Source: Clostridia bacterium (GTDB lineage Bacteria; Bacillota; Clostridia; Oscillospirales; Acutalibacteraceae). From it: DNA of 64,000 bases. Where the stretch lies: NCBI GenBank assembly GCA_017416765.1, contig JAFQBE010000003.1:199-64198 (forward strand), read 5' to 3'. This document shows, one piece after another, positions 4,525 to 35,656 of this stretch (positions within the stretch are counted from its first letter, which is position 1; each line of letters begins with the position of its first letter). A program made the position numbers and the translations under genes. The notes under the pieces were generated by a model. It was not told where the DNA came from and did no database searches. It worked only from the letters and a program-made list of their open reading frames with translations.

Positions 4525-4553
4525 TGTTTTATGCGCCCTTTCGGTAAAAATTA

Positions 4554-5848: not shown

Positions 5849-5852
5849 AAAA

Positions 5853-7598: not shown

Positions 7599-7604
7599 TT
7601 TGCT

Positions 7605-20300: not shown

Positions 20301-23300
20301 CCATTTCCAAGGCGAAACCAGATCCTGAGTATCCGCCTGCAATGTAGGAATCCGTATTAGCAACTATACTACCAATTGTAACACCGCCACGTATCATGGT
20401 ATTAGTTTCATTTGCTAATGTAGATTTAAGTGAACCGGATATTACAATATTTTTAAGTAGATCTTTGGGAAGATGAGTTTCTTCTGAGTACTCATAGCAA
20501 AAAGCAGATGTTATGGAACCAATTGCGCCACCAATACAATCTGTACCAATAATACTGCCGTCAAATACACTGTCAGTAATTGAGAGATATTGCGTATAAG
20601 CAACATATTCACTATAAAGATCAATGCCCCTGAAAAATCCAATAAAACCACCTGTACCGACACGCCAATACTCCTGATCGGTATGGTATGGCTCAGAAAC
20701 CACATTCATATCAGCCACTGAAGTAATCTGAGCTGATACAGTGTTATAAGAAAGTTTTAACTGCGTTCCAGTAGATTTATATTGAGTTGCTAAACCAACA
20801 ATACCGCCTGTTGCAGAAAAATATTTTAAAGTCTCATTATCGCATTCAATATAATTGGTGATTATTGTTTGAAAATCGACATCACAATACTTGATATTCA
20901 CATCTGATATGTAAGAATCTCTATATGAATTATAGTTTGCAGTATTAGTACCAAGTATGCCTCCTACACCGAAATCATAAGTTTCTAGTGAATATCCACA
21001 AGGAACACAATCTTTGACAGTAGTAATAACAGATAAAAAAACATCACAATTGTTAATATGCAACACATTACCGATATTAACATATAACATAATGTTAGCG
21101 CCAACTATACCGCCAACAACAACGCCTTCAACCAAACTGTTTTTAAGAACACAGTCAACAAGCGTATCACCTTCTGCCGGACCGTTAACAGCACCGACTA
21201 TGCCGCCAACAACAACATTACGATTCTTGACAGCAGTCGGTGAAGAAATATTGATATCTGTCGCTTTAATTTCTGCATTTTCAACAACTGCATTGCTTAT
21301 AAAACCATATATCTTGCTGACTGCTTCTATCGCATCAGCATTATCATAAGATCTGTATGGACCTACATAACCAGCTATACCACCGATATAAAGTTCGGTA
21401 GTACTGTGGATAGTTGTACCTTTTTCTGAATCTGCAGAAACCTTTACATTTTTTATTGTTGTTTTAGCGTTTGTAGCCGCAACGATACCGCCGGCATTAC
21501 CTGCCGACCTGACAGTAAGATTTGAAACCGTAATATCGAAGTCTGCTTCATCTTCCGGAACTTCTCGGCCAATATTAAGAGAAGATGCAGACATATTTGC
21601 TGCTGTTTCATAATATTTCTGATAAGTACCGATAAGGCCGCCGGCATTAACAGTGGCATAACCATAAACGTTGCCGATACTTGGACCTGCAACAACAATA
21701 TTGCTTGCTGCAACACCATAAACATTTATTGTATGTGCTTCAGTATCGCTTTCTTCAGCTGAACCTATAATAGCGCCGATACCGCCGATAACAACAGCAT
21801 TGTCCTTAAAGAATTTAGCACCATCGGTATATGACGTCTGTACCGTAACACCGTTAAGGGTAACATTATATATATCTGCATCACAGTCTTTCATGCTTGC
21901 TACAACAGCAGCAACACTTTTACCTGTACCGATTGCAGATGAGTCAATTATTTCTACATCATGGATATTGACTTTATCAATGCCTGTACCGACAAGCACA
22001 GCTGTACTGTCGCCGCCTGAAACAGCAAAATCCCTTATTTTCAAATTATATATACCGGAATCAGATGAAACACCGTTAACACTTACACCTTCAGAAAAAT
22101 CAACAGCAGCAAAAAGAGCAGAATTGTCATTGGTACTTGTGATTGTAAGTTCGCTGATTTCGTAATTGTTACCATCAAATATACCTGTGAAAGGATAAGC
22201 GTTAGAGCCTATGGGCGGAATTACAGTATCGCCCATGCGTATATTTGCGTCCAACTTATATGCTTTTGAAAGATAGGTTAAATCTTTATTTTCAGAATCA
22301 GGATTGACTTTGTTGGAAAGCATAACCAAATCTTCTTTGGTAGAAAGGATTATATAGCCGTCCTGTGTTACAAAATCGGAAGATTTTACAAGATATTTTA
22401 CATATGTCTGGAAGCCTGTTTCAAAGTTAACAACTTTAAGATAAACACTGTCACCTGCCTGCGCAGAGGTTGCTGCTTTGACAGTTACATTGAGTTTACC
22501 GTTTTCTACAGTAATACCTTCAATAGTAAATTTATCTGCCTCATATGCAGTTTCATTATTATTACTATCAATATTAATAAGAGAAACCGTAAAGTCGGAA
22601 ACAGAAGCACCTTCAAAGGCTGTGACATGCTGCGGAATATCAACAGTCCATACAAAGTCGCCGCCTGCCATCATGTTCTGAGTAGGTACACTTTCCCCAC
22701 CCCAAAGAGATACGCTTTCCTGCTCAACATTGGAAGCCTTATTGGTTGAAGCAAAGCTAAGCTTTGACCAAACTATATTTTTATAAGCTCTACTATATAC
22801 ACCGGCATGTTTACCAAATACCGCATAAACATATGTAGAACCAATAATACGGGAGCTGATAATACTGTTTGCTATAAGACCGCTGTTCTGTTCAGAATCT
22901 GCAATAAAGGCTGCACGGGAAATTTCGTTGCTGTCCCCAGATACATAAACACTTATTGCATTAACAAAACAATTATCAACAACTACTGCACCGCTGACAT
23001 AAGCAATAAAGCCTGCAACATAGTTTGTTGCACCGAATTTTACAGATACATCGGTTGAGCAGCCATAAATATAACTGTTACCTACTGCGCAATCAATAAA
23101 TGCAGCAGAATATGCAGGTGCTTTTGAAAGGTCTGCGATATAGCCTTCATATACAGTTTCGTCACCGTCATCCGGTGTGGGATCGCCGTCGGAAAGAGCA
23201 ACTTTTACAATTGTGGAATCATATACGGTACCCAAAACAGATTCGTCTATATCTGCTGAAAGCTCAAAATTAAGATTTGATATATAGCCGCCCTTTCTGT

Positions 23301-25659
23301 TGGCTGTATCCAAATTTGGGTCGCTGACTGCATCTTTATAGTACGGACCTTTATCGCGTGTACCGATAACTGCTGTAAATAGCTTTGTATCTGTTGCAAT
23401 AATATTATCGTCACCGTAAATTGAACCTGTAAAGATTGTTTTTGTCCAGGAAGACTCTGTAATAGCAATATCAGTTGTGATCTTATAATTACCGTACGGT
23501 GCAAGATGAATATACTGTGCCATTGCAGTCGACTTGATTTCAAACGGACTGCCTACACCTTTTGAAGGGTCGTAATCGGGATCACCTGTGGCATTGCTTG
23601 TGACAAAAATATCAAGAGCAAATGAAACCGGCAGATTCTGCATTGAAGATGCACCGGCACCTGTTCCCGCAAAATCAAAATCAGCCAAATATGATTTAGT
23701 TATAAGTGTGTTGTTGGAACCCGAACCCGTGTATGAAACATCGTCGCTTACTGTAACAATTGCCGCTGTAGTTCCTTCAATAACATTGAACGCATGTGTG
23801 TTATCTGCTGCATTGAGATTGCCTAAATCGCCACGTTCTACAACAACAGCTCTGTTTGAAGAAACAAGCTTACCGGCAGAAGTTTCAAGGATATAGGGGC
23901 GTCTTGAATCAACAGTATCAGTAAATACGTATGCAGTTGCACATTTACTTATTGCATCAGACCAATAGCAACCGGAAGCTTGGGCAGCATTGCCGCCAAA
24001 ACCGATTACCGCACCTATATACTCCCTTGCAGGATTAATAAGCCTTACAAGCGTATAGCAATTTGAAATTGCCCCGTCAGGTGTGTTACTGTCTGCAAAT
24101 GCAACAATACCGCCGGCATAACCATAGGTTTCGTTGTCTGACAAAAATGAACCTGTAGCAACACAGCCAGAAATTATACCACCGCTAACTATACCGGTAT
24201 TTTCATCTTTTTGTCCTATTGTAACAGCAGCAATACCGCCGTAATAGCCATTGTAAAGTGCTGACTTCATGTATGCACCGACATTATGAACTGTGGAAGA
24301 AACGATTTCGCCATTATTAACAGAAGTTATACCACCGTAATATGCAAAATTTTCACCGCAATCAACACCGCAATAAATATTGTATGATGATGCTGTTGCC
24401 GCCTGAGCTGATGTTACAGAGCCTGTTACGGTAGAGTTATAGACATAACCCTTATTGTAACCGACAAGACCGCCGACATAACCGCCGCCGGTTATATTAT
24501 TTTTGATATCAGCTGTACCTGCAAAATCAACAACACAGTTTTTAATACCATTCTCTGTTCCGCTTGTTTCATTATAACCGACAAGACCACCGATATAATG
24601 ATTGTTACTTGTTATGTTAAGTTTAATTTCGGAAACTGATGATGAATCAACTATGCCGCGGTTCTGTCCTACAAGACCTGCTACATAGTCGTTGCTTGAT
24701 TTTGTCGGGAGATTAACTGTAAAGTTATTTACCTTAACATTCTCGATCCTTGATCTGTTATCGGAAACAGCGGCAGCAATACCGTTGTAAAGAACATATG
24801 TATCAATTGTTACAGAAGAACCATCCGTATTTTCTGAACTGATGTCAGGAGAAACAAGTTCGATTTTACTGTCAACAATTTCACAGTTTGAAATTGTGCC
24901 GGCATTCATGTACGAAATAACAGCCATACGCTTGGGCTGGTCAGATGTTGCAGCAACATTAATGTCTTCAAATATAACATTGCTGATTTCAGATTTTTCA
25001 TTGAGATAACCGAACAGTGCGAAGTTTTCATGGGGTACGCTGATTCGTGTACCTTCACTGCAGCTGATAACATATTTTTTTACATCGCCGTTTTCTTCGT
25101 ACACAATGTTACCCTGCGTATCCCTTACAGTACCATCAAGAATAAAACGCACAACATCGGAAGTCGGCTGTCTGAAATTAGTTGAAACAAGATAGGCATT
25201 ACCGGCTTTTTCAGGGAAGGGCAATTCAACACCTTCTGCAAAAAGAGGTGAAAGATCAATATTAGCACCGAGTCTAAAGTATTTATTTGATGTATCATCA
25301 GCCTGAAGATTGGGGAACTGGGCATTGACAATTTTATTTGCTTCAAGGAAATCGGAAGCATCCATAATAATATAAGGATTCTGCTGTGTACCCTCACCTT
25401 CAAGTGTTATTTCTTCAGCCGCTTGAAGTTGTATTGAAACATCGGAATCAAGAGTAAGTTCACCGCCCTGAACCGAAATTTCAGGTTCGGAGGATTCGGC
25501 ATCAACAGAGGAACCGGAGGCAGATTCAATGGCAGAAAGAGAATTGGCAACGCTGTCCTGGTTTGCGTAAACCAAGAGATTGTATGCACCAGTAGACGAC
25601 AGCAGTAATGCCGTCGCCAAAAGTATTACAAATGAGCGGAATGCCAACCTTTTCTTCAT
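8305..25659 (-). CDS. giant (5,784 aa) secreted GLUG-repeat, beta-helix-type surface/adhesin-like protein
   Basis: Single uninterrupted 17,355-nt ORF; GGAGG 8 nt upstream; Sec-type signal MKKRLAFRSFVILLATALLLSSTGAYNLLVYA/NQ; dozens of GG(L/I)(V/A)G GLUG-type repeats; at least 8 module heads of the form PY-x-I...(N/D)IDL...PIG...PF-x-G-x-(F/Y)DG-x-G(Y/F)-x-I-x-x-L; no LPXTG, SLH, TM or choline-binding tail recognised. Confidence 0.9.
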   Translation of the reverse strand: MKKRLAFRSFVILLATALLLSSTGAYNLLVYANQDSVANSLSAIESASGSSVDAESSEPEISVQGGELTLDSDVSIQLQAAEEITLEGEGTQQNPYIIMDASDFLEANKIVNAQFPNLQADDTSNKYFRLGANIDLSPLFAEGVELPFPEKAGNAYLVSTNFRQPTSDVVRFILDGTVRDTQGNIVYEENGDVKKYVISCSEGTRISVPHENFALFGYLNEKSEISNVIFEDINVAATSDQPKRMAVISYMNAGTISNCEIVDSKIELVSPDISSENTDGSSVTIDTYVLYNGIAAAVSDNRSRIENVKVNNFTVNLPTKSSNDYVAGLVGQNRGIVDSSSVSEIKLNITSNNHYIGGLVGYNETSGTENGIKNCVVDFAGTADIKNNITGGGYVGGLVGYNKGYVYNSTVTGSVTSAQAATASSYNIYCGVDCGENFAYYGGITSVNNGEIVSSTVHNVGAYMKSALYNGYYGGIAAVTIGQKDENTGIVSGGIISGCVATGSFLSDNETYGYAGGIVAFADSNTPDGAISNCYTLVRLINPAREYIGAVIGFGGNAAQASGCYWSDAISKCATAYVFTDTVDSRRPYILETSAGKLVSSNRAVVVERGDLGNLNAADNTHAFNVIEGTTAAIVTVSDDVSYTGSGSNNTLITKSYLADFDFAGTGAGASSMQNLPVSFALDIFVTSNATGDPDYDPSKGVGSPFEIKSTAMAQYIHLAPYGNYKITTDIAITESSWTKTIFTGSIYGDDNIIATDTKLFTAVIGTRDKGPYYKDAVSDPNLDTANRKGGYISNLNFELSADIDESVLGTVYDSTIVKVALSDGDPTPDDGDETVYEGYIADLSKAPAYSAAFIDCAVGNSYIYGCSTDVSVKFGATNYVAGFIAYVSGAVVVDNCFVNAISVYVSGDSNEISRAAFIADSEQNSGLIANSIISSRIIGSTYVYAVFGKHAGVYSRAYKNIVWSKLSFASTNKASNVEQESVSLWGGESVPTQNMMAGGDFVWTVDIPQHVTAFEGASVSDFTVSLINIDSNNNETAYEADKFTIEGITVENGKLNVTVKAATSAQAGDSVYLKVVNFETGFQTYVKYLVKSSDFVTQDGYIILSTKEDLVMLSNKVNPDSENKDLTYLSKAYKLDANIRMGDTVIPPIGSNAYPFTGIFDGNNYEISELTITSTNDNSALFAAVDFSEGVSVNGVSSDSGIYNLKIRDFAVSGGDSTAVLVGTGIDKVNIHDVEIIDSSAIGTGKSVAAVVASMKDCDADIYNVTLNGVTVQTSYTDGAKFFKDNAVVIGGIGAIIGSAEESDTEAHTINVYGVAASNIVVAGPSIGNVYGYATVNAGGLIGTYQKYYETAANMSASSLNIGREVPEDEADFDITVSNLTVRSAGNAGGIVAATNAKTTIKNVKVSADSEKGTTIHSTTELYIGGIAGYVGPYRSYDNADAIEAVSKIYGFISNAVVENAEIKATDINISSPTAVKNRNVVVGGIVGAVNGPAEGDTLVDCVLKNSLVEGVVVGGIVGANIMLYVNIGNVLHINNCDVFLSVITTVKDCVPCGYSLETYDFGVGGILGTNTANYNSYRDSYISDVNIKYCDVDFQTIITNYIECDNETLKYFSATGGIVGLATQYKSTGTQLKLSYNTVSAQITSVADMNVVSEPYHTDQEYWRVGTGGFIGFFRGIDLYSEYVAYTQYLSITDSVFDGSIIGTDCIGGAIGSITSAFCYEYSEETHLPKDLLKNIVISGSLKSTLANETNTMIRGGVTIGSIVANTDSYIAGGYSGSGFALEMVIGDDMSYTFSNIYYSSFAIDTTTFPFMGYCGADKSNNWSNYIPTYFETFSLIVNCYYDVNLKGSDFDNGNVEPQLTDYSSGTEFVGYVFPEVNRGEFRLDTADKNGKKPHWVGSNPSIAIVSDTEYNSLTVTPKNPETIDVSIDYIGSVTDGEGWSYEARLPVGFKFTSTAFVPLQTVNYNGTTYRLITDPIDFKLIKDEALAYNYWLANDIVFTENMFDPTNGMYKGGFTPIGTSSAPFTGTFGSRKDAGNEQFEISGLQLTASADTNKVAGLFGYTQNASFDNFKITDVTSTADVKYAAAVAAVATGSLNATNVTVENAHISGADYTAGLFGGLFSAGQGAISWNISESKLIGERTADSSYTTTIQGDLASAGIVVHTDQNAASIKGVTVSGSAIIQGTENDTDDSTYFDNGAAGIAFAYSGDISANGNKRNTVKDSLVKGEIAAGAVVRTYTSNANDVFSSFSSNTNHASVVAERVSINAVDIFSTIVEGTHIHTADKYSYRTISSAGIIARVDAPSVNHTVTDCTLDEQTTVKAPYGVGGIVGCFEAPTDTSKIRVYNIVIDSCNTSATVTATESDNTKITDTISNLYYNMGAGGIIGSLSKDTYLSGIHISNCHVGGTISGDSAVGGLVGAIWTSGMIVDEAKFNEMNHHFAENCVISASFKNLAGEDSFVKKTTTTGIVVGYIYDFEANPSNGVMVSGSSFSGYTNQPFFNIYYSGYKYQSGSAYLFGVLKPVQSGNDNSANTKSGLTDYIYDINSYEADKENEPGIKNHTINEQTRALTFGEQYRIKHKDYDYEENITPINSLLFATGYPVAMSDFSFDALPQNVPDNDLNYIFDSAASINGFTVSAVNKGGTDTALEQTAVLMPESVKTDSNKISVKAAEGGYILAPADGVTLTETVEFNLVFTYSNGMELAAAFVVEVSGNDYYRYENTYFVFNASNLYSTIEKVNASSTIIQCYDIFCAIENNNPLITSADTYAENVTLSQVMSAEDLALLAASVHPNPKFEAGVDERTEIDIEEYLGVTDLANVKLSKLVDGVSATQYGTYTENSSDHFDLDFAGDYRVLSAVAVDNINSTGLTQAGDYFSIYGFESHDDVNVTAQGEDAEKSGFFNSLNGATVTGLTFVNPKIEVIGSRDAENFVGVLAGSAVGATITDVSVERIGTQGEAYVMSLRQMIPASTNVGGIVGSADAATKINNCSVSGLDVIGATLAGNTSGKLYTVKVGGIAGSSAAEIVDASVSDSRILAERYDRFRNTYVSYAGGIAAWATGNITNAEVNNTQLRDATCSVNVTGTTAAGSYVANADDHELVADRIGGIVAHSYGNVNIASAKLHGVSITAFDTAGGIIGEIENDDEAVVNITNSNVGDYAVAGSNADIRVLSSSNLSTSNLRQFYNVAGGIVGKVDNLASLNINGSGFSGYVGTYSYDNLNKDCTAGGVIGYISEQLENISSLTVVDTTVSGEVSGFRSGKTAPAFEPYLGAAGGYIGKIRSTVSDAGETPLVSHGVMSAEVNLYTNSTGTMVDATNATVKDPQSVSTNVGKLLGFAIEGNNFATSAEDLTAYFENIYVSSYPQDIIAYGCKDFYGQKNTAETYTDINVATYTYTEDGTTYTENGKSFMVGTSEDISISPADDKYSSSALIPLDTENIGEEGVSASRHFRLVYNDIKFKSDNTSSDVISYNKENGAHIVLNEGETSAVISIDNYEKPYGTLTISQVKEDIIGDLVLTYSYGLEVGIRLITVEIEGMGEEDDPYLISTPKHFDVVRALPDAYYKQVNNIDLAPQYGYSTTVTSPLWKDGQGFEPIGTKQIPFIGSYDGGGYLITNLYINRSSDYAGLFGCVGSGAELKNIHIELAGPMTVNTNPENFNITADLVGGITANSYVGGLAGRVNNATVTNCSVVKGNVIGDTALGGLIGESAGATIDSCFISTTVYSKLTGKEYSGQNKNAGALVGFVSGTTSVSGSFTFGYVSLGVKESNDERIYGAVGGLAGYVGTNAKLEISDVFVGASVSDSNGINFYKGLTIGGSNTQRSDITAKNVRISAAVAATQVGDTDKINPVLGVLGGVTVPDDAKGSVIYDADLMGIAAEQAVVDEQGNPIVDENDEVVTEWVTVVSDESGVTPASGEDFSLNGVNLAANAGTDAYTLAYVELAKLQVDPSAKEITDRQNNTLYKDGLFYPVTVMGEGIIASSSRFDTSDNLDDYPSEMDTELYGDGKDKSIRNTDLLFENVQGGIKVYINIFKEDAEKYTGEVLKNGEMFYNDRVPYFVVTDSAPVTVDDTSVELYRKVVYPVQVRNDSIGRIYPISTERQLNSIGIKATDEYGKVIDTKFVALTPDKSYTFTDDIVLGNYKFNPIPDYSGRFEGNGFKLSNLNIEASDNTGFIGTMLGGSLSNMVLEIGTVSGGNNVGALVGSIQPAEGKTVNITNCSVSHLMKDKESADGETAEKEPVGSGVIGSNNVGGLVGYAKGGTGSIISHSFTQVTVSGTNVVGGLVGYNEMAVDNSYATGDVNSSITGTYSGTHGIGGLVGVSNGSAAVISSSFSSSAVDVGLNDGMTYITSSEYGVGGLVGHVGDGAQLSGVFSSGGVRYSYSDGDSEDDNETGSSVELPSCQSLTLGVGGLVGVLGSSTLNVYSSASVAAKFGDVSAASAVGAGGLFGVIKAGVEYGYSSGSTLAEPRMKDYSSANYGVGGVIGVIAGGVSAKHLRYDLNVSAIEYDAETDASQGSVGKVISGSFDNAAQATTAQFIDGSSLQSELGGSVFGYTPGAYPYLKALFNENVSRTIQFNALLSVVAIELNPLDQMAAEGKGISMAMNIPTEVTHNGTAYTFGFEADNTQQGSAKAIVDPNTNTLSVQRSSNKAEQANFIITIETVGGQKVDPSDGVVYSTVASRPLSRICAQMLGTDDYPFLVASQEDMKHVAMTSNELTATAAADPESLYLEWNEPLDANTDSNDTKVYYRMMGNVYLDGTYTRPVGFAALAHGYSFDGNGYFVHGLRETLADTVNESSVITNVTFKDTVFSEGESLVGNLDGIVRGVNVFSMPVNEKNTDGTLKYTHTKSSGNNVAGIAQTVNKNGIIEGCVVNLDWEGTANDSFAGIALTNNGTIAMSASVGDITGSANSAAAFVGENNNTISTCFTMGDILLDSPTSSVSGFVGTNNSAITNCYTRCNIIVRGENSGLNAGSFAANNGTNGTINACYAAGLFTVDNAGTTHVFVGHNDGSINDSMFDKQMSGSSFADDFYLAERTLEVATLSNMNIMVKGAYVVSDNAGKTAVIDGVETVVDIEYPQLKAILDTKVLEETGEADKDGNKIKEETEQSLMYRTLRSYSNLSSAGAMVNNDNYIDYLPYGTDTVISSKFIWKMADESVAEMDDFAGGGKYFTTNNKAASTIISVRNPDITNKPDLGIEIEEYHSYTKEESKIYDTYNLHITVNNNPNPNFSGGNGTEETPYIIATKEQVVALSYYGSNPDSYFIIGEVTDAEGNDIDDITNGALDMTGTDWGAYIDLFSANLDGRGYTLSNVTIPPEGDNALIGVIDGGNISNLGIAGISITVPEGNTDAAGMLAAKAMNNTSTITNCVVVGTVTGPDGKAATSEYIGGLIGDAQGPVIIDGCVVSGKVVNSEGSAGGVIGKAENGVSVTNSLSTVLVDGGNSAVGGIIGSGPANTTDSVSVSNTVFAGNVNGATVGNIAGDGKNITVTNSYYDKQLSMVAAEENGVTAASTHYLTTALVSDFVSTMGRINSFSGYPVPAAIASGENYGDAFMNAVKLASAKISFVNGTGAGTSKVFTGVAADDWGAIMTVSGDTVKYFGATTSGTSLKADTSSLALGETAEGEFTYTLADTSLVRYIDFTLGKTVKAVQYKLKDSGIADSSKAIISVVTGVGEGKSAATIFDSTANYAESYESICNNMIFAYDEELEAYTFTVTAQLDEKLIAEDIDVKFDNVNVSADIIKNQNGSFTVVIGSEATTELVNFTTVSIDITAVEEAWGVHKLVSFF

Positions 25660-25750: not shown

Positions 25751-27883
25751 TTAATCCTCGTTGTTTTTTAATGCCTTTGCTTTTTCAGCAGCCTTTTGCT
25801 TAGCTGCTCTTTCTTTTTCCTTTTGTTTTGCTTTTGCAGCTTTCTCTTTTTCAGCTTGTAAAGCTTTTTCCCTTGCAGCCTTTTCTTTTGCCTTCTGTTT
25901 TGCCTTGGCTGCCTTTTCTTTTTCAAGCTCTAAAGCGCGCTGTTTAGCCATTTTTTCTTTTTCCTTGGCTTTTTGAGCTGCGGCTTTTTCTTTTTCAGCC
26001 TGTAAAGCTTTTTCCTTTGCTGCCTTCTCTTTAGCCTTCTGCTTTTCAGCAGCTTCTTTTATTTTTTGAGCTTCAAGAGCTTTTTGCTTGGCTATTCTTT
26101 CTTTTTCTTTCTGTTTAGCCTTCGCAGCCTTTTCTTTTTCAGCTAAAAGTGCTTTTTCTTTAGCAGCTCTCTCTTTTGCCTTGAGCTTTTCAGCTGCTTC
26201 TTTAGCTCTTTGAGCTTCCAGAGCCTTTTGCTTTTCTATGCGCTCTTTTTCCTTTGACTTGAGTTTTGCTTTACGCTCCTTTTCAAGCTGTAAAGCTTTT
26301 TCCCTTGCCAGCTTTTCTTTTGCTTTTTGTTTAGCTGCACGCTCTTTTTCTTTAGCAGCCTGTTGTGCTGCAAGCTCTTTTTGTTTTTTCTGCTCTGCAA
26401 GAAGAGCTGCTTTTCTTGCTTTTTCTTCTTCAAGTGCTTTGAGCTTTTCCTGTCTTGCCTTTTCTTTGGCAATTCTTGCTTTTTCTTTTTCCTTAGCCTG
26501 TCTTTCAAGCTCCTGCTCACGCAGCTTTGCTTTTCTTGCGCGCTCTTTTTCTTTTGCCTTGCGCTCTTTTTCGAGTGCAAGTTCTTTTTCCTTCTTTGCT
26601 TTGAGTCTTGCCTTTTCTTTTGCTTTTCTTTCCTTTTCCAAAGCAAGCTCTTTTGCAATACGAGCCTTTTCGCGTTCCTTACGACGCTTTTCAATTTCTT
26701 TCTGACGCTGAATCTCAGCCTGAATCTTAGCTTCAATTTCAGCCTTACGCTCGTTTTCAGCCTTCAATGCGCGGTCGATAGCTTCATTAATCTTGGTTTC
26801 TCCCGCGGTCTTCTTCTTGTTGGCTCGTTTAAGCTCATCAACAAAAATTCTTCTTATCTCAACTTCTTCCATATCGTAGTTGAGAACAAGCTCTTCTGCA
26901 AGGCGCTTGAGAAGTTTCGGCTTAACCTTACGCTTTTTAAGCTTTGCTTCTTCAAGTTCCTGCTCACCTATATTCTTTTTAAGGAGCATATAGTTAACGC
27001 TTGCCAATTTGAACAAGTCGTTTTTATAATCGTCGGGAACCATTTCGTTGGACTCTTTGGCTGTAATTTCATAACCTACTTCATCATAGGAAGAAATAAA
27101 CTGCCAGAGATTAAGACAAGCACGGAAATTTGGGTCCTTCTGAATAACATTTGTACGCATAATCGGAGGACGGACCGGAGTACAGTGCTCAAGATCACGC
27201 ATAAAGGATGAACCACAGAAACCGTTTACAACTCGCTTGATTCTTTCAATTCTTGCAAGTGCGCTTACATTTTCGTCACCGGGTTTCATATCTTCAGCAC
27301 TCATTGTTGCAGTAGTTTGTGTTGCTACTTCCAATTTATAAGTAATTGTTTCATGACCGCGCTTTATTTCACTGTTCATGCTGAGCGATGATTTCTTTTC
27401 ATCCTGCTCCATATTGAAAAGAACATTATAACGCGTATCAATAAAGTGTCTGAGATTTCTGAGAAGTGTGAAGATAAAACGGTTTTCATAAATTTCAAAG
27501 CTTTCTTCACGGAAAACGTTAAGAATCTGGCTGGGAGTAACGCGGTCGCCGTCAACACGGGCAATCATACTGGTGTGCTGTGCAAGGTGACGGACAGATT
27601 CAGCTGTAATTTTTCTTGCACGCTCAATGGGAACGATTTCTTCTTCCTGAACGATGAACTTACGGGGGTTACGCACAATCGTATCGAGTGCAACTGTACA
27701 AGCTTCAATAGCTTCAACCCATTTAAGGTCAATCTTCTTTTCAAAGAAACGATTGAACATAGAAATTTCATGCTTGCCGCTTTCCATAGCTTCAAGCATA
27801 TCGCTGTAGTAATCATCACTGCCAAAAAGTGATAATGTACCTGCCTGATATTCGTTGTAAAGGTCTTCATATGAAGTTCCCAT
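25751..27883 (-). CDS. McrC-like (DUF2357-type N-domain) protein lacking a nuclease domain, fused to a ~340-aa K/E/A-rich helical tail
   Basis: Directly downstream of the McrB-like gene; motifs SFEIYENRFIFTLLRNLRHFI and TNVIQKDPNFRACLNLWQFI; C-terminal half is an uninterrupted KEKA-type repeat with no Pro or Gly; start set at ATG 27883 (AAGGAG 9 nt upstream; the track ORF begins at a TTG). Confidence 0.6.
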   Translation of the reverse strand: MGTSYEDLYNEYQAGTLSLFGSDDYYSDMLEAMESGKHEISMFNRFFEKKIDLKWVEAIEACTVALDTIVRNPRKFIVQEEEIVPIERARKITAESVRHLAQHTSMIARVDGDRVTPSQILNVFREESFEIYENRFIFTLLRNLRHFIDTRYNVLFNMEQDEKKSSLSMNSEIKRGHETITYKLEVATQTTATMSAEDMKPGDENVSALARIERIKRVVNGFCGSSFMRDLEHCTPVRPPIMRTNVIQKDPNFRACLNLWQFISSYDEVGYEITAKESNEMVPDDYKNDLFKLASVNYMLLKKNIGEQELEEAKLKKRKVKPKLLKRLAEELVLNYDMEEVEIRRIFVDELKRANKKKTAGETKINEAIDRALKAENERKAEIEAKIQAEIQRQKEIEKRRKEREKARIAKELALEKERKAKEKARLKAKKEKELALEKERKAKEKERARKAKLREQELERQAKEKEKARIAKEKARQEKLKALEEEKARKAALLAEQKKQKELAAQQAAKEKERAAKQKAKEKLAREKALQLEKERKAKLKSKEKERIEKQKALEAQRAKEAAEKLKAKERAAKEKALLAEKEKAAKAKQKEKERIAKQKALEAQKIKEAAEKQKAKEKAAKEKALQAEKEKAAAQKAKEKEKMAKQRALELEKEKAAKAKQKAKEKAAREKALQAEKEKAAKAKQKEKERAAKQKAAEKAKALKNNED
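25790..26380 (-). repeat. 144-nt (48-codon) imperfect tandem repeat inside the K/E-rich coding region
   Basis: The motif CAGC(C/T)TGTAAAGC and its variants recur at 25852, 25996, 26140 and 26284, exactly 144 nt apart; protein units look like KAKEKAAKEKALQAEKEKAAKAKQKEKERIAKQKALEAQKIKEAAEKQ. Confidence 0.75.
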
Positions 27884-27928: not shown

Positions 27929-27950
27929 CCGTCCCGTAAAAACGGGACGG
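27929..27950 (-). other. GC-rich intercistronic hairpin between the McrB-like and McrC-like genes
   Basis: CCGTCCCGT-N4-ACGGGACGG, a 9-bp perfect stem; not followed by a U-tract on the minus strand. Confidence 0.5.
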
Positions 27951-27982: not shown

Positions 27983-29578
27983 TTACATCATCTTCTGAAG
28001 TCTTTCGAGATATTCCTTAGATTCGCTCATGTTAGACTTACCGAAGTGTTTGTTCAGGTATGTGATAAGACCCTGGATTTCATCGCGGATGAAAGAAAGG
28101 TTGAGTGATTCAAACTTACGAAGAATCTTATGACAGAGAACGAAATCAAGACCGTCGATTTCTGTACCACCGCAGCCTACATACGCGGGAACAAAATCCT
28201 GCAGCTGCTTAACGATACGGTTACCGAATGCAAGACGGAAATGTTCAATAACATAGTCGTCAAGTTCTGCAAGCTTGCGAAGGCTTTCTTCGGAAACCTT
28301 ATATTTCTGCTTACATTCATCAAACATTGATTCGAGATGCTTGTAGCTGAGTGTAAGGTTATCGGTCCAGGGAGCCTCAAAGAACTTACCCTTTGTGTTA
28401 ATATCAATCGGGATAGCACGGTCATAAACCTTATCGGTAACGGCGAAGGTCGAGTCGTCGTTATTGATTGTGCCGATGTACCACATGTTGTCGGGAAGCT
28501 TGAGCTTACCGTCGAACAGATGCTTGGGGTCAGTAGGCCATACGGAGGGAACAAGAGAAACAATCCATTCGTCACGGCTGGGCATTTCGAGAATTGAAAG
28601 CATTTCAGCGAAATAGTACTCAACACGTGCGATATTCATTTCGTCGAGGATGGTAAGATAAATATCTTCTTTGTATGTAGCTTCATACATCTTTTTGAGA
28701 ACTTCAGTTTCGTTGAAGCGCTTGGTAAATTCGTTGAAGTAACCGAAAAGCTCGGTACGGTCACGCCATGACGGCTGAACGGAAGCGATAATAGCATCGT
28801 TCTGGAGGAACTTACCGAAAGAGTACGGAAGTGAAGTTTTACCTGTACCGGAAATACCCTGAAGGATAATCAGACGGGTTGAAGCAAATGCAGCAAGGAA
28901 AAGACGAAGGGTTCTGTGTTCATAGTAAAGACCCATACGGGAAGCTGCAAAGTTACGGTACATATCAATAATACCGGGAAGTGTGATTTCGTTATTATAT
29001 TCGGGCGGCTCATAGCCCTCCATTTCGATATCAACCTGCGTGAGTTTGTAGAAACGGCTATAGTCATCCGCTGTTCTTTCATCTACACCGTCAGCAGTGG
29101 TTGTTGTTTCGCCTTCTTCACCTTCAGCTGCAGCAACTGCCGCACCCGAAGAACCGTCTACAGCGGATTCGAGATAGGGGTTTTCGCCGGGACGAAGACC
29201 GAGCTGAGAAACCTTCATAGCAAGGATTTTATCCTTTTCAATTGAAAGCTTCATAATTTCGCGGTTGAGAGTGGCAACTTCATTGAGAAGCTCTTCCTGA
29301 TTAACAACCGTTTTACGGAAACGGATGTACTTCTTGATAAGAAGGGCAAGAAGTACAATAATGCCTGCAAGAAGTGCAAGCACAAGCAAGCAACAAAGTG
29401 CACCGAGGATAATACCGCCAACACCTAAAGTACCTGCATACTCTCTGAAAATTCTGACATATTTCGGAACATTGAAAATATTTGCAATGCCAAGACCGAA
29501 GCCTTTGATTATTCCCCAGAAGCCTTTAACAAAAAGCTGGTCAAGGAAATCACCGAGAAACTGGAAAATACCGCTCAT
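27983..29578 (-). CDS. membrane-anchored McrB-family AAA+ GTPase
   Basis: TM at aa 51-81 followed by KKYIRFRK; Walker A GISGTGKTS, Walker B LTILDEMN plus IARVEYYFAEMLSILE, and WYIGTINNDDS (NxxD box), as in McrB-type AAA_5 domains; AGGTGG 8 nt upstream of the ATG. Confidence 0.75.
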   Translation of the reverse strand: MSGIFQFLGDFLDQLFVKGFWGIIKGFGLGIANIFNVPKYVRIFREYAGTLGVGGIILGALCCLLVLALLAGIIVLLALLIKKYIRFRKTVVNQEELLNEVATLNREIMKLSIEKDKILAMKVSQLGLRPGENPYLESAVDGSSGAAVAAAEGEEGETTTTADGVDERTADDYSRFYKLTQVDIEMEGYEPPEYNNEITLPGIIDMYRNFAASRMGLYYEHRTLRLFLAAFASTRLIILQGISGTGKTSLPYSFGKFLQNDAIIASVQPSWRDRTELFGYFNEFTKRFNETEVLKKMYEATYKEDIYLTILDEMNIARVEYYFAEMLSILEMPSRDEWIVSLVPSVWPTDPKHLFDGKLKLPDNMWYIGTINNDDSTFAVTDKVYDRAIPIDINTKGKFFEAPWTDNLTLSYKHLESMFDECKQKYKVSEESLRKLAELDDYVIEHFRLAFGNRIVKQLQDFVPAYVGCGGTEIDGLDFVLCHKILRKFESLNLSFIRDEIQGLITYLNKHFGKSNMSESKEYLERLQKMM

Positions 29579-29611: not shown

Positions 29612-30481
29612 TTATTTATTTTCGCTGTCGTTTATTTCGTTTTGCTCTGTCTGCTGCTCTTCTGCAGCCTTTTGCTGTGCAAGGAACTCCGCGATAATTG
29701 CTTTTATCTTTGCTTCCTCTGCTTTTTCTTTTTCAGCCTGTTCAAGTTCTTTCTGCTTGGCTAAATATTCTTCGATAATCATTTGTTTTCGTGCTTCTTC
29801 TTCCTGCTGTTTTCTCAGGTATTCCTGAATAATAGCGTCTTTTTCGCTTTGAGCCGCAGGAGGGTAATACTGCGGCGGTACATTGTATGCCACAGCAGGC
29901 TGCTGATTGCCCTTTTTATCGAGGGCCAGCGAACGAAGATAGCCGAAAAGCTGCCATATAACTATTAATGCAGCGGGCAACACAATAAGGAGCATAACAC
30001 CTTGTGATGTTGCGGCAAAATCAAAGAATGCGCCAAGCTTTTCAACTCGTTTGCCTTGATACTGACCAAGAATTTTAGAGGAGGTAACATGTTTTTTATC
30101 GGGCTGGTCTGCATTATCGCCTTTTGTAACGTAGCTGACCGAACCGTTGCTTTCGATTACATCGTAAACCCTGTGGGTATTGATATACATTGAACCCGTT
30201 TTATCGTAAGCGAGGAAAGAAATTATATCGCCCACTTCATACCGATGGGTTTTAGGGTAGCGCTTAATGATAATCAAATCGTCGGGAAAGAATTCGTCTT
30301 CCATCGAATCACTCTGAACGGAAAGGAACGAATATCCGCCGAGATTTGCAACACCGGTTGACGATTTAACCGAAATTATAACCACCGCACAAATTACGAT
30401 TGAAAAAACTAATATCACAGATGAAACCACATTCATCGCGATATGAAATATTCTGTTGTCCAAAATATTGGCTTTTTTCAT
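29612..30481 (-). CDS. SipW-type (S26B) signal peptidase I with a ~105-aa charged C-terminal cytoplasmic tail
   Basis: VQSDSMEDEFFPDDLIIIK, NTHRVYDV and KGDNADQPD boxes; second TM GVMLLIVLPAALIVIWQLFGYL; tail carries three (A/M)II-x-E(Y/F)L-x-(K/Q)Q motifs. Confidence 0.8.
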   Translation of the reverse strand: MKKANILDNRIFHIAMNVVSSVILVFSIVICAVVIISVKSSTGVANLGGYSFLSVQSDSMEDEFFPDDLIIIKRYPKTHRYEVGDIISFLAYDKTGSMYINTHRVYDVIESNGSVSYVTKGDNADQPDKKHVTSSKILGQYQGKRVEKLGAFFDFAATSQGVMLLIVLPAALIVIWQLFGYLRSLALDKKGNQQPAVAYNVPPQYYPPAAQSEKDAIIQEYLRKQQEEEARKQMIIEEYLAKQKELEQAEKEKAEEAKIKAIIAEFLAQQKAAEEQQTEQNEINDSENK

Positions 30482-30527: not shown

Positions 30528-31400
30528 TTAAGCTGCGGGTTCTTCTTCACTTGATGAACCGAAGGAGATTTTAGCTGAAAGGTGCTTTGCGGAAAGCTTT
30601 TCACCTGTACAGTCAGCATCGTTACCTTCAATCCAGATGCGTACTATGATTTCATCAGAACCGGTATTACCGGAAATCTGCGGAAGCTCAAAAGTAGCTT
30701 CGTACTTGTTGATTTCTGCTTCGCTCGCTGTAAGCTGACCAACAATATTCTGAGTTGAAACATAAGAACCATTGAAGTTAGCATCTTCAGAATCAAGAAT
30801 GCTGTTGTTGTTTGAATCCTTAACAGTTGCAGCAGGAAGTTCGTTTGTAACAACTGCCTGTGCGCTGTCGCCTTCCATGGCGAATACTGTTGTCTGACCT
30901 TTATATGTAACTGAAACACGGGCTGCTTCAACAGCTGCGTTATCGCCATCGCGACCTGTAAGGGCGATGTTCATTCTGCCGTCAACAGTTTCTGTTGTTG
31001 TGGAACGGATTTTGATTGTAAGTTCGTTATAATCGCTGCCCTTTTCGGGTGTAAGGGAAGCGAAGTAGCCGCCTTCAAGACCGACCTTTGTGAAAGCTGC
31101 ACCGTCAGCGCTTGAAACAGGAGAATAGCTGCCGTCTTCTGCTATAAGCTCACCTTCTGCGAAACAGTCTCTCTGGAGATATGCGCCCCATTCAACTGTC
31201 TCTGTTTCTTCTGCGCCCATGTGAGCATGACCAGCGGAACCCTGAATTTCAATACCACCGCCGGCTTCAATAACATCGAAGCCCAGGTCGAACAGCTCTG
31301 CGAAGCCACCGACAAGGAACCAGGCGTATGTACCGGATACCATTGTTGTTGCGGCAACGATAAGAACGATGATAGACATTCCTAATTTGCGTTTTGCCAT
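30528..31400 (-). CDS. TasA-like fibre subunit candidate with SipW-cognate signal
   Basis: MAKRKLGMSIIVLIVAATTMVSGTYAWF signal; C-terminal VRIWIEGNDADC motif shared with 32909-33712 and 33845-34717. Confidence 0.7.
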   Translation of the reverse strand: MAKRKLGMSIIVLIVAATTMVSGTYAWFLVGGFAELFDLGFDVIEAGGGIEIQGSAGHAHMGAEETETVEWGAYLQRDCFAEGELIAEDGSYSPVSSADGAAFTKVGLEGGYFASLTPEKGSDYNELTIKIRSTTTETVDGRMNIALTGRDGDNAAVEAARVSVTYKGQTTVFAMEGDSAQAVVTNELPAATVKDSNNNSILDSEDANFNGSYVSTQNIVGQLTASEAEINKYEATFELPQISGNTGSDEIIVRIWIEGNDADCTGEKLSAKHLSAKISFGSSSEEEPAA

Positions 31401-32617: not shown

Positions 32618-32711
32618 TAAATTATTCCTCCGGATATTTAAAATTTGGGAGCAACTGTCATTTCGATTTTGATTATTCAATCAATATCCAAATCGCACCT
32701 GCTCAATCGGA

Positions 32712-33712: not shown

Positions 33713-33844
33713 AGTTTTTTCCTCCATTTAAGAGTTAGTGTTTTTTTAGGGATTAGAAACACATTTTATCCAAAGTGTTTCGGACTTTATGCGGGGTTAA
33801 TCAAACGCTGTGACAAGGAAAAGCTTTATTAAGTCTCCCCCAAC

Positions 33845-34717: not shown

Positions 34718-34750
34718 ATTTATCAACTCCGATGAATTAATTCGGGTTAT

Positions 34751-34777
34751 GCGGACGGCCATTGACCGCCCCTACGA
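34751..34777 (-). repeat. single copy of the GC-rich hairpin repeat
   Basis: GCGGACGGCCATTGACCGCCCCTACGA, between the EAL gene stop and the next start. Confidence 0.75.
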
Positions 34778-35583: not shown

Positions 35584-35656
35584 TGATGCCTGACCCCTTT
35601 GCAAATTAATTATTTATATATAATTATTATATATGAAGATAAAAATACACAGTAGA

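What the first reader, a model, noticed from the sequence alone, without database searches (positions are those of the whole stretch)
25751..27883. McrC/DUF2357-like partner with the nuclease replaced by a ~340-residue uninterrupted K/E/A helix
Seen: the N-terminal ~300 aa contain SFEIYENRFIFTLLRNLRHFI and, about 100 aa later, PPIMRTNVIQKDPNFRACLNLWQFISSY. From about aa 375 to 705 the sequence is only K/E/A/R/Q/L/I, with no Pro or Gly. No PD-(D/E)xK-like region follows the N-domain. There is no signal peptide or TM.

Established: the gene after mcrB normally encodes McrC. Its N-terminal part plugs into the McrB hexamer and stimulates GTP hydrolysis, and its C-terminal PD-(D/E)xK domain cleaves DNA. 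From memory, the YENRF-type motif and the N-x-L-x-x-D-x-x-(Y/F)...LW motif are typical of DUF2357, which is normally fused to a DUF524 nuclease.

Inference: the effector nuclease has been swapped for a rod about 50 nm long if it is a continuous helix (340 aa x 0.15 nm rise). The rod could be an ER/K-type single alpha-helix or a coiled coil, acting as a spacer, ruler or tether. It is a non-defence exaptation of McrBC.
Basis: partly seen in the sequence, partly recalled or inferred. Interest (0 to 1): 0.85.

Follow-up and report, generated by a model that had tools for sequence, protein, structure and literature searches.

The report
Nuclease-less McrC partner with long charged helix
This gene encodes the McrC-like partner of a membrane-anchored McrB-type GTPase in which the DNA-cutting domain has been replaced by a ~350-residue charged helical tail; it belongs to the 'CoCoPALM' gene cluster, named in 2024 but never studied experimentally, which links McrBC-like proteins to fibre or pilus assembly in gut Clostridia.

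Summary
The gene lies on the minus strand (25751-27883, 710 aa). Residues 59-184 match Pfam DUF2357 (E 5.7e-12). The last Pro is 322 and the last Gly is 361. Residues 376-710 are 98.5% K/A/E/R/L/Q/I. There is no nuclease, TM segment or signal peptide.

It is not a one-off. Profile search finds 1,045 family representatives at E<=1e-30. In 84 Clostridia loci the order EAL, TM protein, SipW-substrate-like proteins, SipW, TM-anchored McrB-like GTPase, this protein, giant secreted protein recurs wherever enough flank is present. Bell et al. 2024 (eLife) named this architecture CoCoPALM but did not analyse it.

Additions from this work:
- The tail has no heptad periodicity, so it is not a canonical coiled coil. 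It is Ala/charge-rich, single-helix-like and net +52.
- Tail length clusters around 336 aa across species.
- Tail charge anticorrelates with the acidic linker of the McrB-like partner (rho -0.84). It does not covary with SipW tails.
- Rare natural fusions join DUF2357, tail, TM and SipW peptidase.

Best reading: a GTPase-ring plug with a helical tether or spacer to the SipW membrane machinery. It is a new member of a known, uncharacterised kind.

The parts
25751..27883 (-). Whole gene: McrC-like (DUF2357) protein with charged helical tail, 710 aa plus stop
   Evidence: ORF list and translation. There are 508 homologues at E<=0.001 in the 90%-identity database and 2,399 cluster representatives.
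26804..27883 (-). Globular N-domain, aa 1-360 (mixed alpha/beta, conserved)
   Evidence: A 23-sequence alignment has 28 invariant columns, including YEN-F at 132-136 and P240, T244, N245, K249, L259 and W260. The AF2 model has mean pLDDT 75.
27332..27709 (-). Pfam DUF2357 match, aa 59-184
   Evidence: PF09823, E 5.7e-12, 45.8 bits against a cut-off of 23.3, profile positions 89-217 of 251.
25754..26800 (-). Charged Ala-rich helical tail, aa 362-710 (strict K/A/E/R/L/Q/I region is aa 376-710, nt 25754-26758)
   Evidence: Composition. 72/144-nt tandem repeats. No 3.5-residue periodicity. AF2 helices at 340-436 and 572-709. Net charge is +52 for aa 376-710 and +55 from aa 346.
27929..27950 (-). 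Stem-loop CCGTCCCGT-TTTT-ACGGGACGG in the 99-nt gap between the McrB-like and McrC-like genes
   Evidence: Read directly from the sequence. Its function was not tested. It could modulate the B:C expression ratio.
27983..29578 (-). McrB-like AAA+ GTPase with an N-terminal amphipathic helix, TM segment (aa 47-87), short conserved coil (aa ~95-125) and acidic linker
   Evidence: NCBIfam McrB 2.8e-7. PDB 6hz4 E 1.3e-6. PADLOC PDC-M26A 1.3e-39. A TM segment occurs in 74 of 75 homologues and the motif T[IA]NNDDS is near-invariant. N-terminal alignment.
29612..30481 (-). SipW-type signal peptidase with a 105-aa acidic cytoplasmic tail
   Evidence: NCBIfam SipW 3.3e-35 and TIGR02228 6.8e-23. Tail net charge -7. 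Tail motif.
30528..31400 (-). Putative SipW substrate / fibre subunit (signal peptide ending GTYAWF)
   Evidence: Sequence. The family alignment has invariant A-W-F and W-x-EGQD-x-DC. Only sub-threshold hits to TIGR04088 and Peptidase_M73.
31649..32680 (-). Second SipW-type signal peptidase with a 141-aa acidic tail
   Evidence: NCBIfam SipW 5.8e-30. Tail net charge -10.
32909..33727 (-). Putative SipW substrate / fibre subunit (signal peptide ending STYAWF)
33845..34762 (-). Conserved single-TM protein of the operon (called P305 here)
   Evidence: TM segment at aa 65-98. Present in 60 loci.
34786..35604 (-). EAL-domain protein at the head of the operon
   Evidence: Pfam EAL 1.9e-38. A promoter-like site TTGACA-17-TACAAT lies at 35685-35657.
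8305..25659 (-). Giant secreted protein (5,784 aa) directly downstream
   Evidence: ORF. N-terminal signal-like segment and G/S/T/N-rich sequence. Only a sub-threshold GLUG motif hit in Pfam (20.1 bits against a 20.5 cut-off). ORFs over 1,000 aa lie downstream in most homologous loci.
2439..8273 (-). Tail end of the cluster: three short SipW paralogues (7026-7598, 6551-7069, 5363-5896) interleaved with small secreted or TM proteins
   Evidence: Sequences. Peptidase_S26/S24 hits.

Best explanation

**Proposed mechanism**
- Its DUF2357 N-domain is inferred to dock asymmetrically into the pore of a hexameric ring formed by the adjacent McrB-like GTPase and to stimulate GTP hydrolysis. This is by analogy with solved McrBC complexes.
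- That ring is held at the cytoplasmic face of the membrane by an N-terminal TM helix and a short coil.
- The PD-(D/E)xK nuclease of canonical McrC is absent. In its place is a ~350-residue, Pro/Gly-free, Ala- and charge-rich, net-basic helical tail with no hydrophobic heptad seam.
- The tail most likely acts as a semi-rigid, length-constrained cytoplasmic tether or spacer. It would associate electrostatically with the acidic linker of the GTPase and connect the GTPase ring to SipW-type signal peptidases in the membrane.
- GTP hydrolysis would thereby be coupled to the processing or assembly of SipW-dependent fibre subunits and a giant secreted protein.

**Shown here:** domain identity, absence of a nuclease, tail composition and periodicity, synteny, length distribution, charge covariation, and the existence of fusions.

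**Inferred:** ring formation, plugging of the ring, GTPase stimulation, physical tethering, and the fibre-assembly output.
For: **Identity**
- DUF2357 match, E 5.7e-12.
- The neighbouring gene is an McrB-type GTPase.

**No nuclease**
- No Pfam hit in aa 185-354 at E<=1.
- The part after aa 305 is all-helix or low-confidence.
- No PDB fold match.

**System**
- The order EAL, TM protein, SipW-substrate-like proteins, SipW, McrB-like, McrC-like, then SipW paralogues and a giant ORF recurs in 84 loci from Acutalibacteraceae, Oscillospiraceae, Ruminococcaceae, Lachnospiraceae and Erysipelotrichaceae, wherever enough flanking sequence is held.
- This matches the published description of CoCoPALM (PMC11090510).

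**Tail as helical tether or spacer**
- P+G median 0.46%, and length unimodal at 336 aa (IQR 292-364) across 79 species loci.
- Lengths are 335-353 aa in relatives with 81-97% N-domain identity.
- No 3.5-residue hydrophobic periodicity: power 0.9 in the window, z<3 in 58 of 61 homologue tails, against 87 for a synthetic heptad control.

**Contact with the GTPase**
- Tail net charge anticorrelates with the net charge of the McrB-like linker: Spearman -0.84, n=67.
- The value is -0.78 on 26 cluster means and -0.68 within the basic-tail clade.

**Link to SipW**
- Natural fusions of DUF2357, charged tail, TM and SipW peptidase occur in two representatives of different 50%-identity clusters. One is found identically in two independent assemblies in the same operon context.
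- SipW genes start within 400 nt downstream of the McrC-like gene in 19 of 79 loci.

**Ring and plug model**
- Taken from McrBC structures (PMC7680126, PMC6624300).
Against: - No direct similarity to E. coli McrC was found by profile, by PDB sequence search or by fold (best 6ut6_G, E 0.19, TM 0.16). The plug role is therefore extrapolated through DUF2357.
- AF2 leaves the middle third of the tail (437-571) at low confidence, so rigidity is unproven.
- i to i+4 opposite-charge pairs are not enriched (52 against 51 expected). Only i+3 pairs are enriched (70 against 51). Net charge is +52, unlike the near-neutral classical ER/K helices.
- Tail length and charge do not covary with SipW tails.
- The charge anticorrelation has not been corrected with a proper phylogenetic method.
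- In a distant clade the tail is acidic (-13 to -37), so any electrostatic rule is clade-specific.
- Fusions are rare: 2 of about 260 sequences examined.
- The identification of the neighbouring proteins as TasA-like fibre subunits rests only on signal-peptide motifs and sub-threshold hits.
Confidence: 0.6

Rival explanations
1. The tail is a genuine two-stranded coiled coil. It would dimerise two McrC-like subunits and so bridge two GTPase rings, taking over the role that the nuclease-domain dimer plays in E. coli McrBC. Alternatively it would pair with other coiled coils of the system, as the name CoCoPALM implies.
For: - Bell et al. describe coiled-coil domains on both the McrB and McrC homologues.
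- In E. coli, two McrB hexamers are bridged by an McrC dimer (PMC6624300).
- Ala+Leu+Ile make up 34% of the tail.
- AF2 gives two long helices that could fold back on each other.
- A few distant homologues do show a 3.5-residue signal (L074 z=8; L003 z=3.2, with L004 carrying the identical P0100 protein).
Against: - LIVMF residues are only 11% of the tail and show no power at 3.5, 3.6 or 3.67 residues (0.9-1.9). Adding Ala gives 0.2. A synthetic heptad control gives 87.
- 58 of 61 homologue tails have z<3.
- The dominant periods are 2 residues and harmonics of the 24-residue repeat.
- A net charge of +52 would make a parallel homodimer strongly repulsive.
Confidence: 0.15
2. The tail is a polycation that binds a cytoplasmic polyanion such as nucleic acid, polyphosphate or the anionic inner membrane leaflet. 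It would either retain an ancestral nucleic-acid link of McrBC or localise the machine.
For: - Net charge is +52 in the window and the family median is +49.
- K occupies every second position over long stretches (period-2 power 21).
- CoCoNuT relatives are predicted to act on RNA (PMC11090510).
Against: - Tails in a distant clade of the same family and operon type are acidic (-13 to -37), so polyanion binding cannot be the general function.
- No nucleic-acid-binding domain or nuclease is found anywhere in the operon.
- The charge is matched by an acidic partner segment within the system itself.
Confidence: 0.1
3. The tail is an intrinsically disordered or loosely helical entropic bristle or low-complexity expansion. 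It would have no defined length function and would be tolerated because repeat slippage generates it.
For: - The tail DNA is made of 72/144-nt tandem repeats.
- AF2 is low-confidence over aa 437-571.
- Wider family members have shorter, interrupted charged segments: the median longest P/G/aromatic-free run is 79 aa in 139 cluster representatives.
Against: - Helix breakers are almost absent over 335 aa (5 non-helix-favouring residues) and across species (P+G 0.46%), which is unlike typical disordered regions.
- Length is tightly clustered, and tail identity is 85-89% between species whose N-domains are 93-97% identical. This argues for purifying selection on both sequence and length.
Confidence: 0.1
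4. The B/C pair is still an anti-phage defence module, a Type IV restriction relative with an unrecognised effector, that merely sits next to a fibre operon.
For: - The GTPase scores 1.3e-39 against the PADLOC candidate-defence model PDC-M26A.
- A JGI annotation calls a homologue a 'predicted component of viral defense system (DUF524 family)'.
Against: - There is no nuclease or other effector domain.
- The McrC-like protein hits no PADLOC model.
- The GTPase has a TM anchor where canonical McrB carries a DNA-binding domain.
- The pair is fixed in the same co-directional operon in every locus examined, across several families, rather than in variable defence islands.
- Fusions to SipW exist.
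Confidence: 0.05

Closest known systems
[quoted passage not shown]
   Same: An McrB-like GTPase is fused to an N-terminal TM segment and coil. The adjacent McrC homologue has DUF2357 and a long charged helical extension. Signal-peptidase genes are in the operon. The proteins are close to the CoCoNuT (NxD) GTPase clade.
   Different: The paper gives only a two-sentence description and defers the analysis. Here the 'coiled coil' of the McrC homologue shows no heptad periodicity. The FtsB/FtsL homology of the anchor is only sub-threshold. The signature reads NNDD, which fits both NxD-D and NxxD.
Canonical McrBC Type IV restriction enzyme (E. coli, T. gammatolerans; PMC7680126, PMC6624300)
   Same: A B-then-C gene pair. 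McrB-type Walker A, Walker B and signature motifs align with E. coli McrB. The C subunit carries the DUF2357 N-terminal domain that Bell et al. equate with the McrC N-domain.
   Different: There is no PD-(D/E)xK nuclease. There is no DNA-binding N-domain on McrB, which has a TM anchor instead. No detectable similarity to E. coli McrC itself. The pair sits in a secretion or fibre operon, not in a restriction context.
CoCoNuT systems (CnuB/CnuC), same paper
   Same: The GTPases belong to the same clade. The McrC homologues often lack an active nuclease and carry charged helical segments.
   Different: CoCoNuTs always have an associated HEPN or other nuclease and RNA-binding domains. None is present here. 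Here the partners are SipW peptidases and secreted proteins.
[quoted passage not shown]
   Same: Long and highly charged. No hydrophobic seam. Pro/Gly-free. Expected to act as a semi-rigid spacer or spring.
   Different: The tail is 23% Ala and net +52, rather than near-neutral. i to i+4 opposite-charge pairs are not enriched, although i+3 pairs are. In composition it resembles alanine-based (EAAAK)n-type helices (from general knowledge). Monomeric helicity is untested.
tapA-sipW-tasA type fibre operons of Bacillota (PMC9674648, PMC10151520)
   Same: A dedicated SipW peptidase is encoded next to secreted proteins whose signal peptides end in a G-T-x-A-x-F-like motif.
   Different: Those operons contain no NTPase and no McrBC-like pair. 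Here there are five SipW paralogues, two of them with long acidic tails, and a giant secreted protein. TasA homology of the subunits is not established.

Membership tests
CoCoPALM (Bell et al. 2024) | An McrC homologue (DUF2357) is encoded next to an McrB-like GTPase | tested here: met
   DUF2357 E 5.7e-12. McrB E 2.8e-7 and 1.3e-6. The two genes are adjacent in all 69 loci with a complete upstream gene, with gaps of 6-149 nt.
CoCoPALM (Bell et al. 2024) | The GTPase is fused to an N-terminal TM plus coiled-coil domain homologous to FtsB | tested here: inconclusive
   The TM segment is present in 74 of 75 homologues. A conserved ~35-aa coil (QEELLNEVxxLNREVxKLxxEKxKILAMKV) is present. FtsL/FtsB homology is only sub-threshold: FtsL_Actino E 0.009, and Pfam FtsL and FtsL_2 each in 8 of 27 members, best E 0.01.
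CoCoPALM (Bell et al. 2024) | NxD rather than NxxD GTPase signature | tested here: inconclusive
   The motif is T[IA]NNDDS in 72 of 75 homologues. It reads as NxD followed by D, as the paper describes. However, HMMER aligns it without a gap to E. coli NTAD, which is an NxxD reading. The top PADLOC hit, PDC-M26A at 1.3e-39, was not checked for clade membership.
CoCoPALM (Bell et al. 2024) | Association with signal-peptidase family genes | tested here: met
   There are five SipW-type genes in the window cluster. A SipW gene lies directly upstream of the GTPase in 67 loci.
CoCoPALM (Bell et al. 2024) | Coiled-coil domain fused to the McrC homologue | tested here: inconclusive
   A long charged helical extension is present. 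It lacks heptad periodicity. Composition-based predictors would probably call it a coiled coil, but that was not run.
Canonical McrC / Type IV restriction McrBC | C-terminal PD-(D/E)xK nuclease domain | tested here: not met
   No Pfam or NCBIfam nuclease hit. AF2 shows no strand after aa 280. No PDB fold match. The tail contains one Asp and no His.
Canonical McrC / Type IV restriction McrBC | Sequence or fold similarity to characterised McrC | tested here: not met
   hhalign against E. coli McrC gives probability 0.1. A PDB profile search gives 0 hits at E<=10. Foldseek 6ut6_G: E 0.19, TM 0.16.
Canonical McrC / Type IV restriction McrBC | DNA-binding N-terminal domain on McrB | tested here: not met
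   The N-terminus is an amphipathic helix, a TM segment and a coil. There are no Pfam hits.
Canonical McrC / Type IV restriction McrBC | McrC binds the McrB hexamer and stimulates GTPase activity | not testable with these tools
   This needs biochemistry or multimer modelling. Only adjacency and charge covariation are available.
ER/K single alpha-helix (SAH) | Highly charged sequence with no hydrophobic seam | tested here: met
   K+R+E+D make up 57% of the tail and LIVMF 11%. There is no 3.5-3.67-residue periodicity.
ER/K single alpha-helix (SAH) | Enriched i to i+4 (and i+3) opposite-charge pairs with near-balanced charge | tested here: not met
   i+4 pairs: 52 observed against 51.1 +/- 5.7 expected. 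i+3 pairs: 70 against 50.7 +/- 5.0. Net charge is +52.
ER/K single alpha-helix (SAH) | Monomeric, stable helix in solution | not testable with these tools
   Requires CD, AUC or SAXS.
Canonical coiled coil | Heptad (3.5-residue) periodicity of hydrophobic residues | tested here: not met
   Power is 0.9 for LIVMF and 0.2 for LIVMF+A at 3.5 residues. A synthetic control gives 87. 58 of 61 homologue tails have z<3.

The most novel reading that the evidence does not exclude
The McrB-like ring and its nuclease-less McrC-like plug form a new kind of GTP-powered assembly motor for SipW-dependent fibres or giant adhesins in Gram-positive gut bacteria. In this reading the ~50-nm charged single helix is a mechanical tether or ruler. 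It transmits or positions GTPase-driven movement relative to the signal peptidase in the membrane, making this a restriction enzyme chassis converted into a secretion or pilus machine.
Probability: 0.3. Interest if true: 0.8.

Novelty: new member of a known kind. Interest (0 to 1): 0.45.

Why it matters
McrBC is the textbook GTP-driven restriction nuclease. A widespread lineage exists that has lost the nuclease and the DNA-binding domain. It has gained a membrane anchor and a long helical tail, and it is locked into a SipW/fibre operon. This lineage has at least 1,045 family representatives at E<=1e-30 and occurs in at least 583 species genomes of gut Clostridia.

Such a lineage would be a clear case of a defence motor being re-used for cell-surface assembly. 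TasA-type fibres are thought to need no dedicated NTPase, so a GTPase-dependent variant would change that picture.

The kind has been named but not analysed or tested. Four observations made here give concrete, testable handles:
- the tail is not a heptad coiled coil;
- tail length is constrained near 336 aa;
- tail charge is complementary to the GTPase linker;
- McrC-SipW fusion proteins exist.

Tried and rejected
- **Direct link to solved McrC.** A PDB profile search with the N-domain alignment gave 0 hits at E<=10. hhalign against E. coli K-12 McrC gave probability 0.1. Foldseek of the N-domain model placed McrC 6ut6_G only at rank 8, E 0.19. These neither confirm nor exclude McrC ancestry. 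The assignment rests on Pfam DUF2357.
- **Cryptic nuclease.** Pfam on aa 185-354 at E<=1 found nothing. The full-length AF2 model and Foldseek found nothing. Rejected.
None was found for length or for charge.
- **TasA homology of the neighbouring secreted proteins.** The PDB profile search gave 0 hits. Pfam Peptidase_M73 matched 3 of 33 members at E>=0.04. TIGR04088 matched 4 of 33, best E 0.0024. Left as putative.
- **CoCoPALM examples in the paper's supplements.** No occurrences in the files held. No follow-up paper was found.
- **Giant ORF domains.** Only a sub-threshold GLUG motif hit.
- **Defence assignment.** PADLOC hits only the GTPase, on a candidate model, and not the McrC-like protein.


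Full report
**1. Checking the observation**

The ORF 25751-27883 is on the minus strand. It encodes 710 aa from an ATG that has an AAGGAG ribosome-binding site 9 nt upstream.

The last Pro is residue 322, the last Gly residue 361 and the last aromatic residue 347. Residues 376-710 consist of K96, A78, E69, R26, L26, Q25 and I9, plus only N3, S1, M1 and D1. A hydropathy scan finds no TM segment.

At the DNA level the tail is a degenerate tandem array with 72- and 144-nt periods, corresponding to 24 and 48 aa. The plus-strand ORFs across this region are mirror artefacts of the low-complexity sequence.

**2. The N-terminal domain**

Pfam DUF2357 matches aa 59-184 with E 5.7e-12, at 45.8 bits against a curated cut-off of 23.3. 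Most homologues carry the same precomputed assignment.

An alignment of 23 N-domains (34-64% identity to the window) has 28 invariant columns. These include Y132-E-N-x-F136 and P240, T244, N245, K249, L259 and W260.

AlphaFold2 gives a mixed alpha/beta domain with mean pLDDT 75.

Direct comparison with characterised McrC fails:
- The PDB profile search gives no hit at E<=10.
- hhalign against E. coli K-12 McrC gives probability 0.1.
- Foldseek places McrC chain 6ut6_G only at rank 8 (E 0.19, TM 0.16), although with the highest 'prob' value in the list.

The McrC relationship therefore rests on two things. One is DUF2357, which Bell et al. treat as the McrC N-terminal domain. The other is gene adjacency.

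**3. No nuclease**

- Residues 185-354 hit nothing in Pfam even at E<=1.
- The full-length AF2 model has no beta strand after residue 280. It has helices at 322-336, 340-436, 477-482, 494-507 and 572-709.
- Foldseek of that model finds no PDB match at E<=0.001 and no PD-(D/E)xK fold.
- The tail has one Asp and no His.

**4. The partner and the operon**

*The upstream gene.* The gene at 27983-29578 aligns with E. coli McrB (PDB 6hz4, E 1.3e-6). It has Walker A GISGTGKT, Walker B LDEMN and the signature IGTINNDDS. It also scores 1.3e-39 against the PADLOC candidate model PDC-M26A.

Where canonical McrB has a DNA-binding domain, this protein has four elements in order:
- an amphipathic helix;
- a TM segment (aa 47-87);
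- a conserved ~35-residue coil;
- an acidic linker with net charge -12.

*Genes further upstream.* These are two SipW-type signal peptidases (E 3e-35 and 6e-30) with acidic cytoplasmic tails of 105 and 141 aa. There are also two secreted proteins whose signal peptides end in TYAWF, a single-TM protein and an EAL-domain protein.

*Genes downstream.* These are a 5,784-aa secreted protein, then three short SipW paralogues interleaved with small secreted proteins.

**5. Distribution**

- The N-domain has 508 relatives (E<=0.001) in the 90%-identity cluster database.
- A profile search of 1.84 billion cluster representatives finds 2,399 hits at E<=1e-3 and 1,045 at E<=1e-30.
The 80 retrieved loci are almost all Clostridia MAGs from animal and human guts: Acutalibacteraceae, Oscillospiraceae, Ruminococcaceae, Lachnospiraceae and Erysipelotrichaceae. 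The closest is an Acutalibacteraceae MAG at 97% identity.
- In 84 loci the order EAL, TM protein, secreted proteins, SipW, McrB-like, McrC-like, then SipW paralogues and an ORF over 1,000 aa recurs co-directionally wherever enough flanking sequence is present.

**6. It is already named**

Bell et al. [quoted passage not shown]
- the GTPase is fused to an FtsB-like TM and coiled-coil domain;
- signal-peptidase genes are associated;

They name these systems CoCoPALM and defer the analysis to a later paper. I found no follow-up.

The window matches this description. Three features remain inconclusive:
- FtsB/FtsL homology is only sub-threshold.
- The NNDD signature fits both the NxD-D and NxxD readings.
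- The 'coiled coil' label is addressed in the next section.

**7. Nature of the tail**

*Periodicity.* Hydrophobic residues (LIVMF, 11%) show no power at 3.5, 3.6 or 3.67 residues (0.9-1.9). Adding Ala gives 0.2. A synthetic heptad sequence of similar composition gives 87. Of 61 homologue tails, 58 have z<3. The dominant periodicities are 2 residues (K at alternate positions) and harmonics of the 24-residue repeat.

*Charge pattern.* Opposite-charge pairs are enriched at i+1 and i+3 (70 against 51 expected) but not at i+4 (52 against 51). Net charge is +52.

*Conclusion on type.* The tail is therefore not a canonical coiled coil, and it is not a textbook ER/K single helix either. It is best described as an Ala- and charge-rich, single-helix-like, polycationic segment.

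*Structure prediction.* AF2 supports a helix for about 235 residues and is low-confidence for 437-571.

*Selection.* It acts on both helicity and length:
- P+G is 0.46% (median) across 79 species loci.
- Tail length is unimodal, with median 336 aa, IQR 292-364, and 53 of 79 between 300 and 430 aa.
- Relatives with 81-97% N-domain identity keep tails of 335-353 aa. Tail identity is 85-89% where the N-domain is 93-97% identical.

*Wider family.* Charged segments there are shorter and interrupted. The very long uninterrupted form is therefore a trait of this clade.

**8. Clues to partners**

*McrB-like linker.* The tail's net charge instead anticorrelates strongly with that of the McrB-like linker:
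- Spearman -0.84 (n=67);
- -0.78 on the means of 26 clusters at 80% identity;
- -0.68 within the basic-tail clade.

In the window the values are +55 for the tail and -12 per GTPase subunit. This was not phylogenetically corrected beyond the clustering.

*Natural fusions.* Two representatives of different 50%-identity clusters, P0208 (1,016 aa) and P0204 (969 aa), are natural fusions of DUF2357, an E/R-rich tail, a TM segment, a SipW peptidase domain and a second TM segment. The fusion preserves SipW topology. P0204 is found identically in two independent assemblies, within the same EAL-...-SipW-McrB-like operon. This is a Rosetta-stone argument that the distal end of the tail works at a SipW peptidase in the membrane.

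**9. Mechanism**

*Established for McrBC.* McrB forms a hexamer. McrC inserts asymmetrically and stimulates GTP hydrolysis. McrC dimers bridge two rings (PMC7680126, PMC6624300).

*Inferred here.* The McrB-like protein forms a ring held under the membrane by six TM helices. The DUF2357 domain plugs and activates the ring. The tail is a length-constrained helical tether or spacer. It packs electrostatically against the acidic linkers and reaches SipW. This would couple GTP hydrolysis to the processing or assembly of SipW-dependent subunits and the giant protein.

*Confidence.* I put about 0.9 on the identity (a nuclease-less CoCoPALM McrC homologue) and about 0.4-0.5 on the tether mechanism. 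The overall figure is 0.6.

*Rivals.* These are a true dimerising coiled coil, a polyanion binder, a disordered bristle, and a cryptic defence module. Each is weighed in the rival list.

**10. Verdict**

However, the kind is already in the literature as a named, uncharacterised system. It is a new member of a known kind. The four new analytical points make it experimentally approachable.

Noticed in passing
window 29612-30481 and 31649-32680 (minus strand); loci L001-L084: The cytoplasmic tails of the SipW peptidases encoded upstream of the GTPase carry 1-4 copies of a short motif, [AIVLM][IVLA]x[ED][YF][ILVM]xx[QKE] (for example IIEEYLAKQ and AVEEYIKQQ). It occurs in 61 of 83 upstream SipWs and in 0 of 61 downstream SipW paralogues. 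That is about 1,700-fold over background in the same loci. It is a candidate docking motif.
   Followed up: partly
L086:112-3162, L087:8001-10910, L088:4811-7720: Natural fusion proteins of DUF2357, a charged tail, a TM segment and a SipW peptidase (P0208, 1,016 aa; P0204, 969 aa). P0204 is identical in two independent assemblies and sits in the usual operon.
   Followed up: yes
window 8305-25659 (minus strand): A single 5,784-aa ORF lies directly downstream. It has an N-terminal signal-like segment and is G/S/V/A/T/N-rich. Its only Pfam hit is a sub-threshold GLUG motif (20.1 bits against a 20.5 cut-off). ORFs over 1,000 aa (up to about 3,000 aa, many truncated by the end of the fetched locus) occupy the same position in most homologous loci.
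   Followed up: partly
window 27929-27950 (minus strand): A perfect 9-bp stem-loop, CCGTCCCGT-TTTT-ACGGGACGG, lies in the 99-nt gap between the McrB-like and McrC-like genes and has no following T-run. It may set the B:C expression ratio.
   Followed up: no
window 2439-8273 (minus strand): Three further short SipW paralogues (7026-7598, 6551-7069, 5363-5896), without long tails, alternate with small secreted proteins whose signal peptides end in FAWF, YAWF or TAWI. This makes five SipW genes in one cluster.
   Followed up: partly
window 27983-29578 (minus strand), aa ~130-185; 67 loci: The acidic patch in the McrB-like linker scales with how basic the McrC-like tail is (Spearman -0.84). With 6 x -12 against +55 in the window, this is close to charge neutrality for a 6:1 complex.
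   Followed up: partly
L019 (Clostridiales MAG JAAYSC010000085.1): The SipW upstream of the GTPase has a 228-aa tail with net charge -97. It is paired with a 470-aa McrC-like tail of +63.
   Followed up: no
window 34786-35604 and 35657-35685 (minus strand): An EAL-domain (c-di-GMP phosphodiesterase-type) gene heads the operon in nearly all loci. In some loci it is fused to HD_5. A near-consensus promoter-like site, TTGACA-17-TACAAT with a TG extension, lies just upstream in the window.
   Followed up: no
P0152 (1,124 aa, family representative): A relative carries a YjbR domain (Pfam E 6.3e-7) after the DUF2357 domain and a charged segment. Other relatives reach 1,380 aa with unassigned C-terminal regions.
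   Followed up: no
window 27983-29578 (minus strand): The GTPase scores 1.3e-39 against the PADLOC candidate-defence model PDC-M26A, while its partner hits no PADLOC model. Automated defence finders may therefore mislabel these operons.
   Followed up: no
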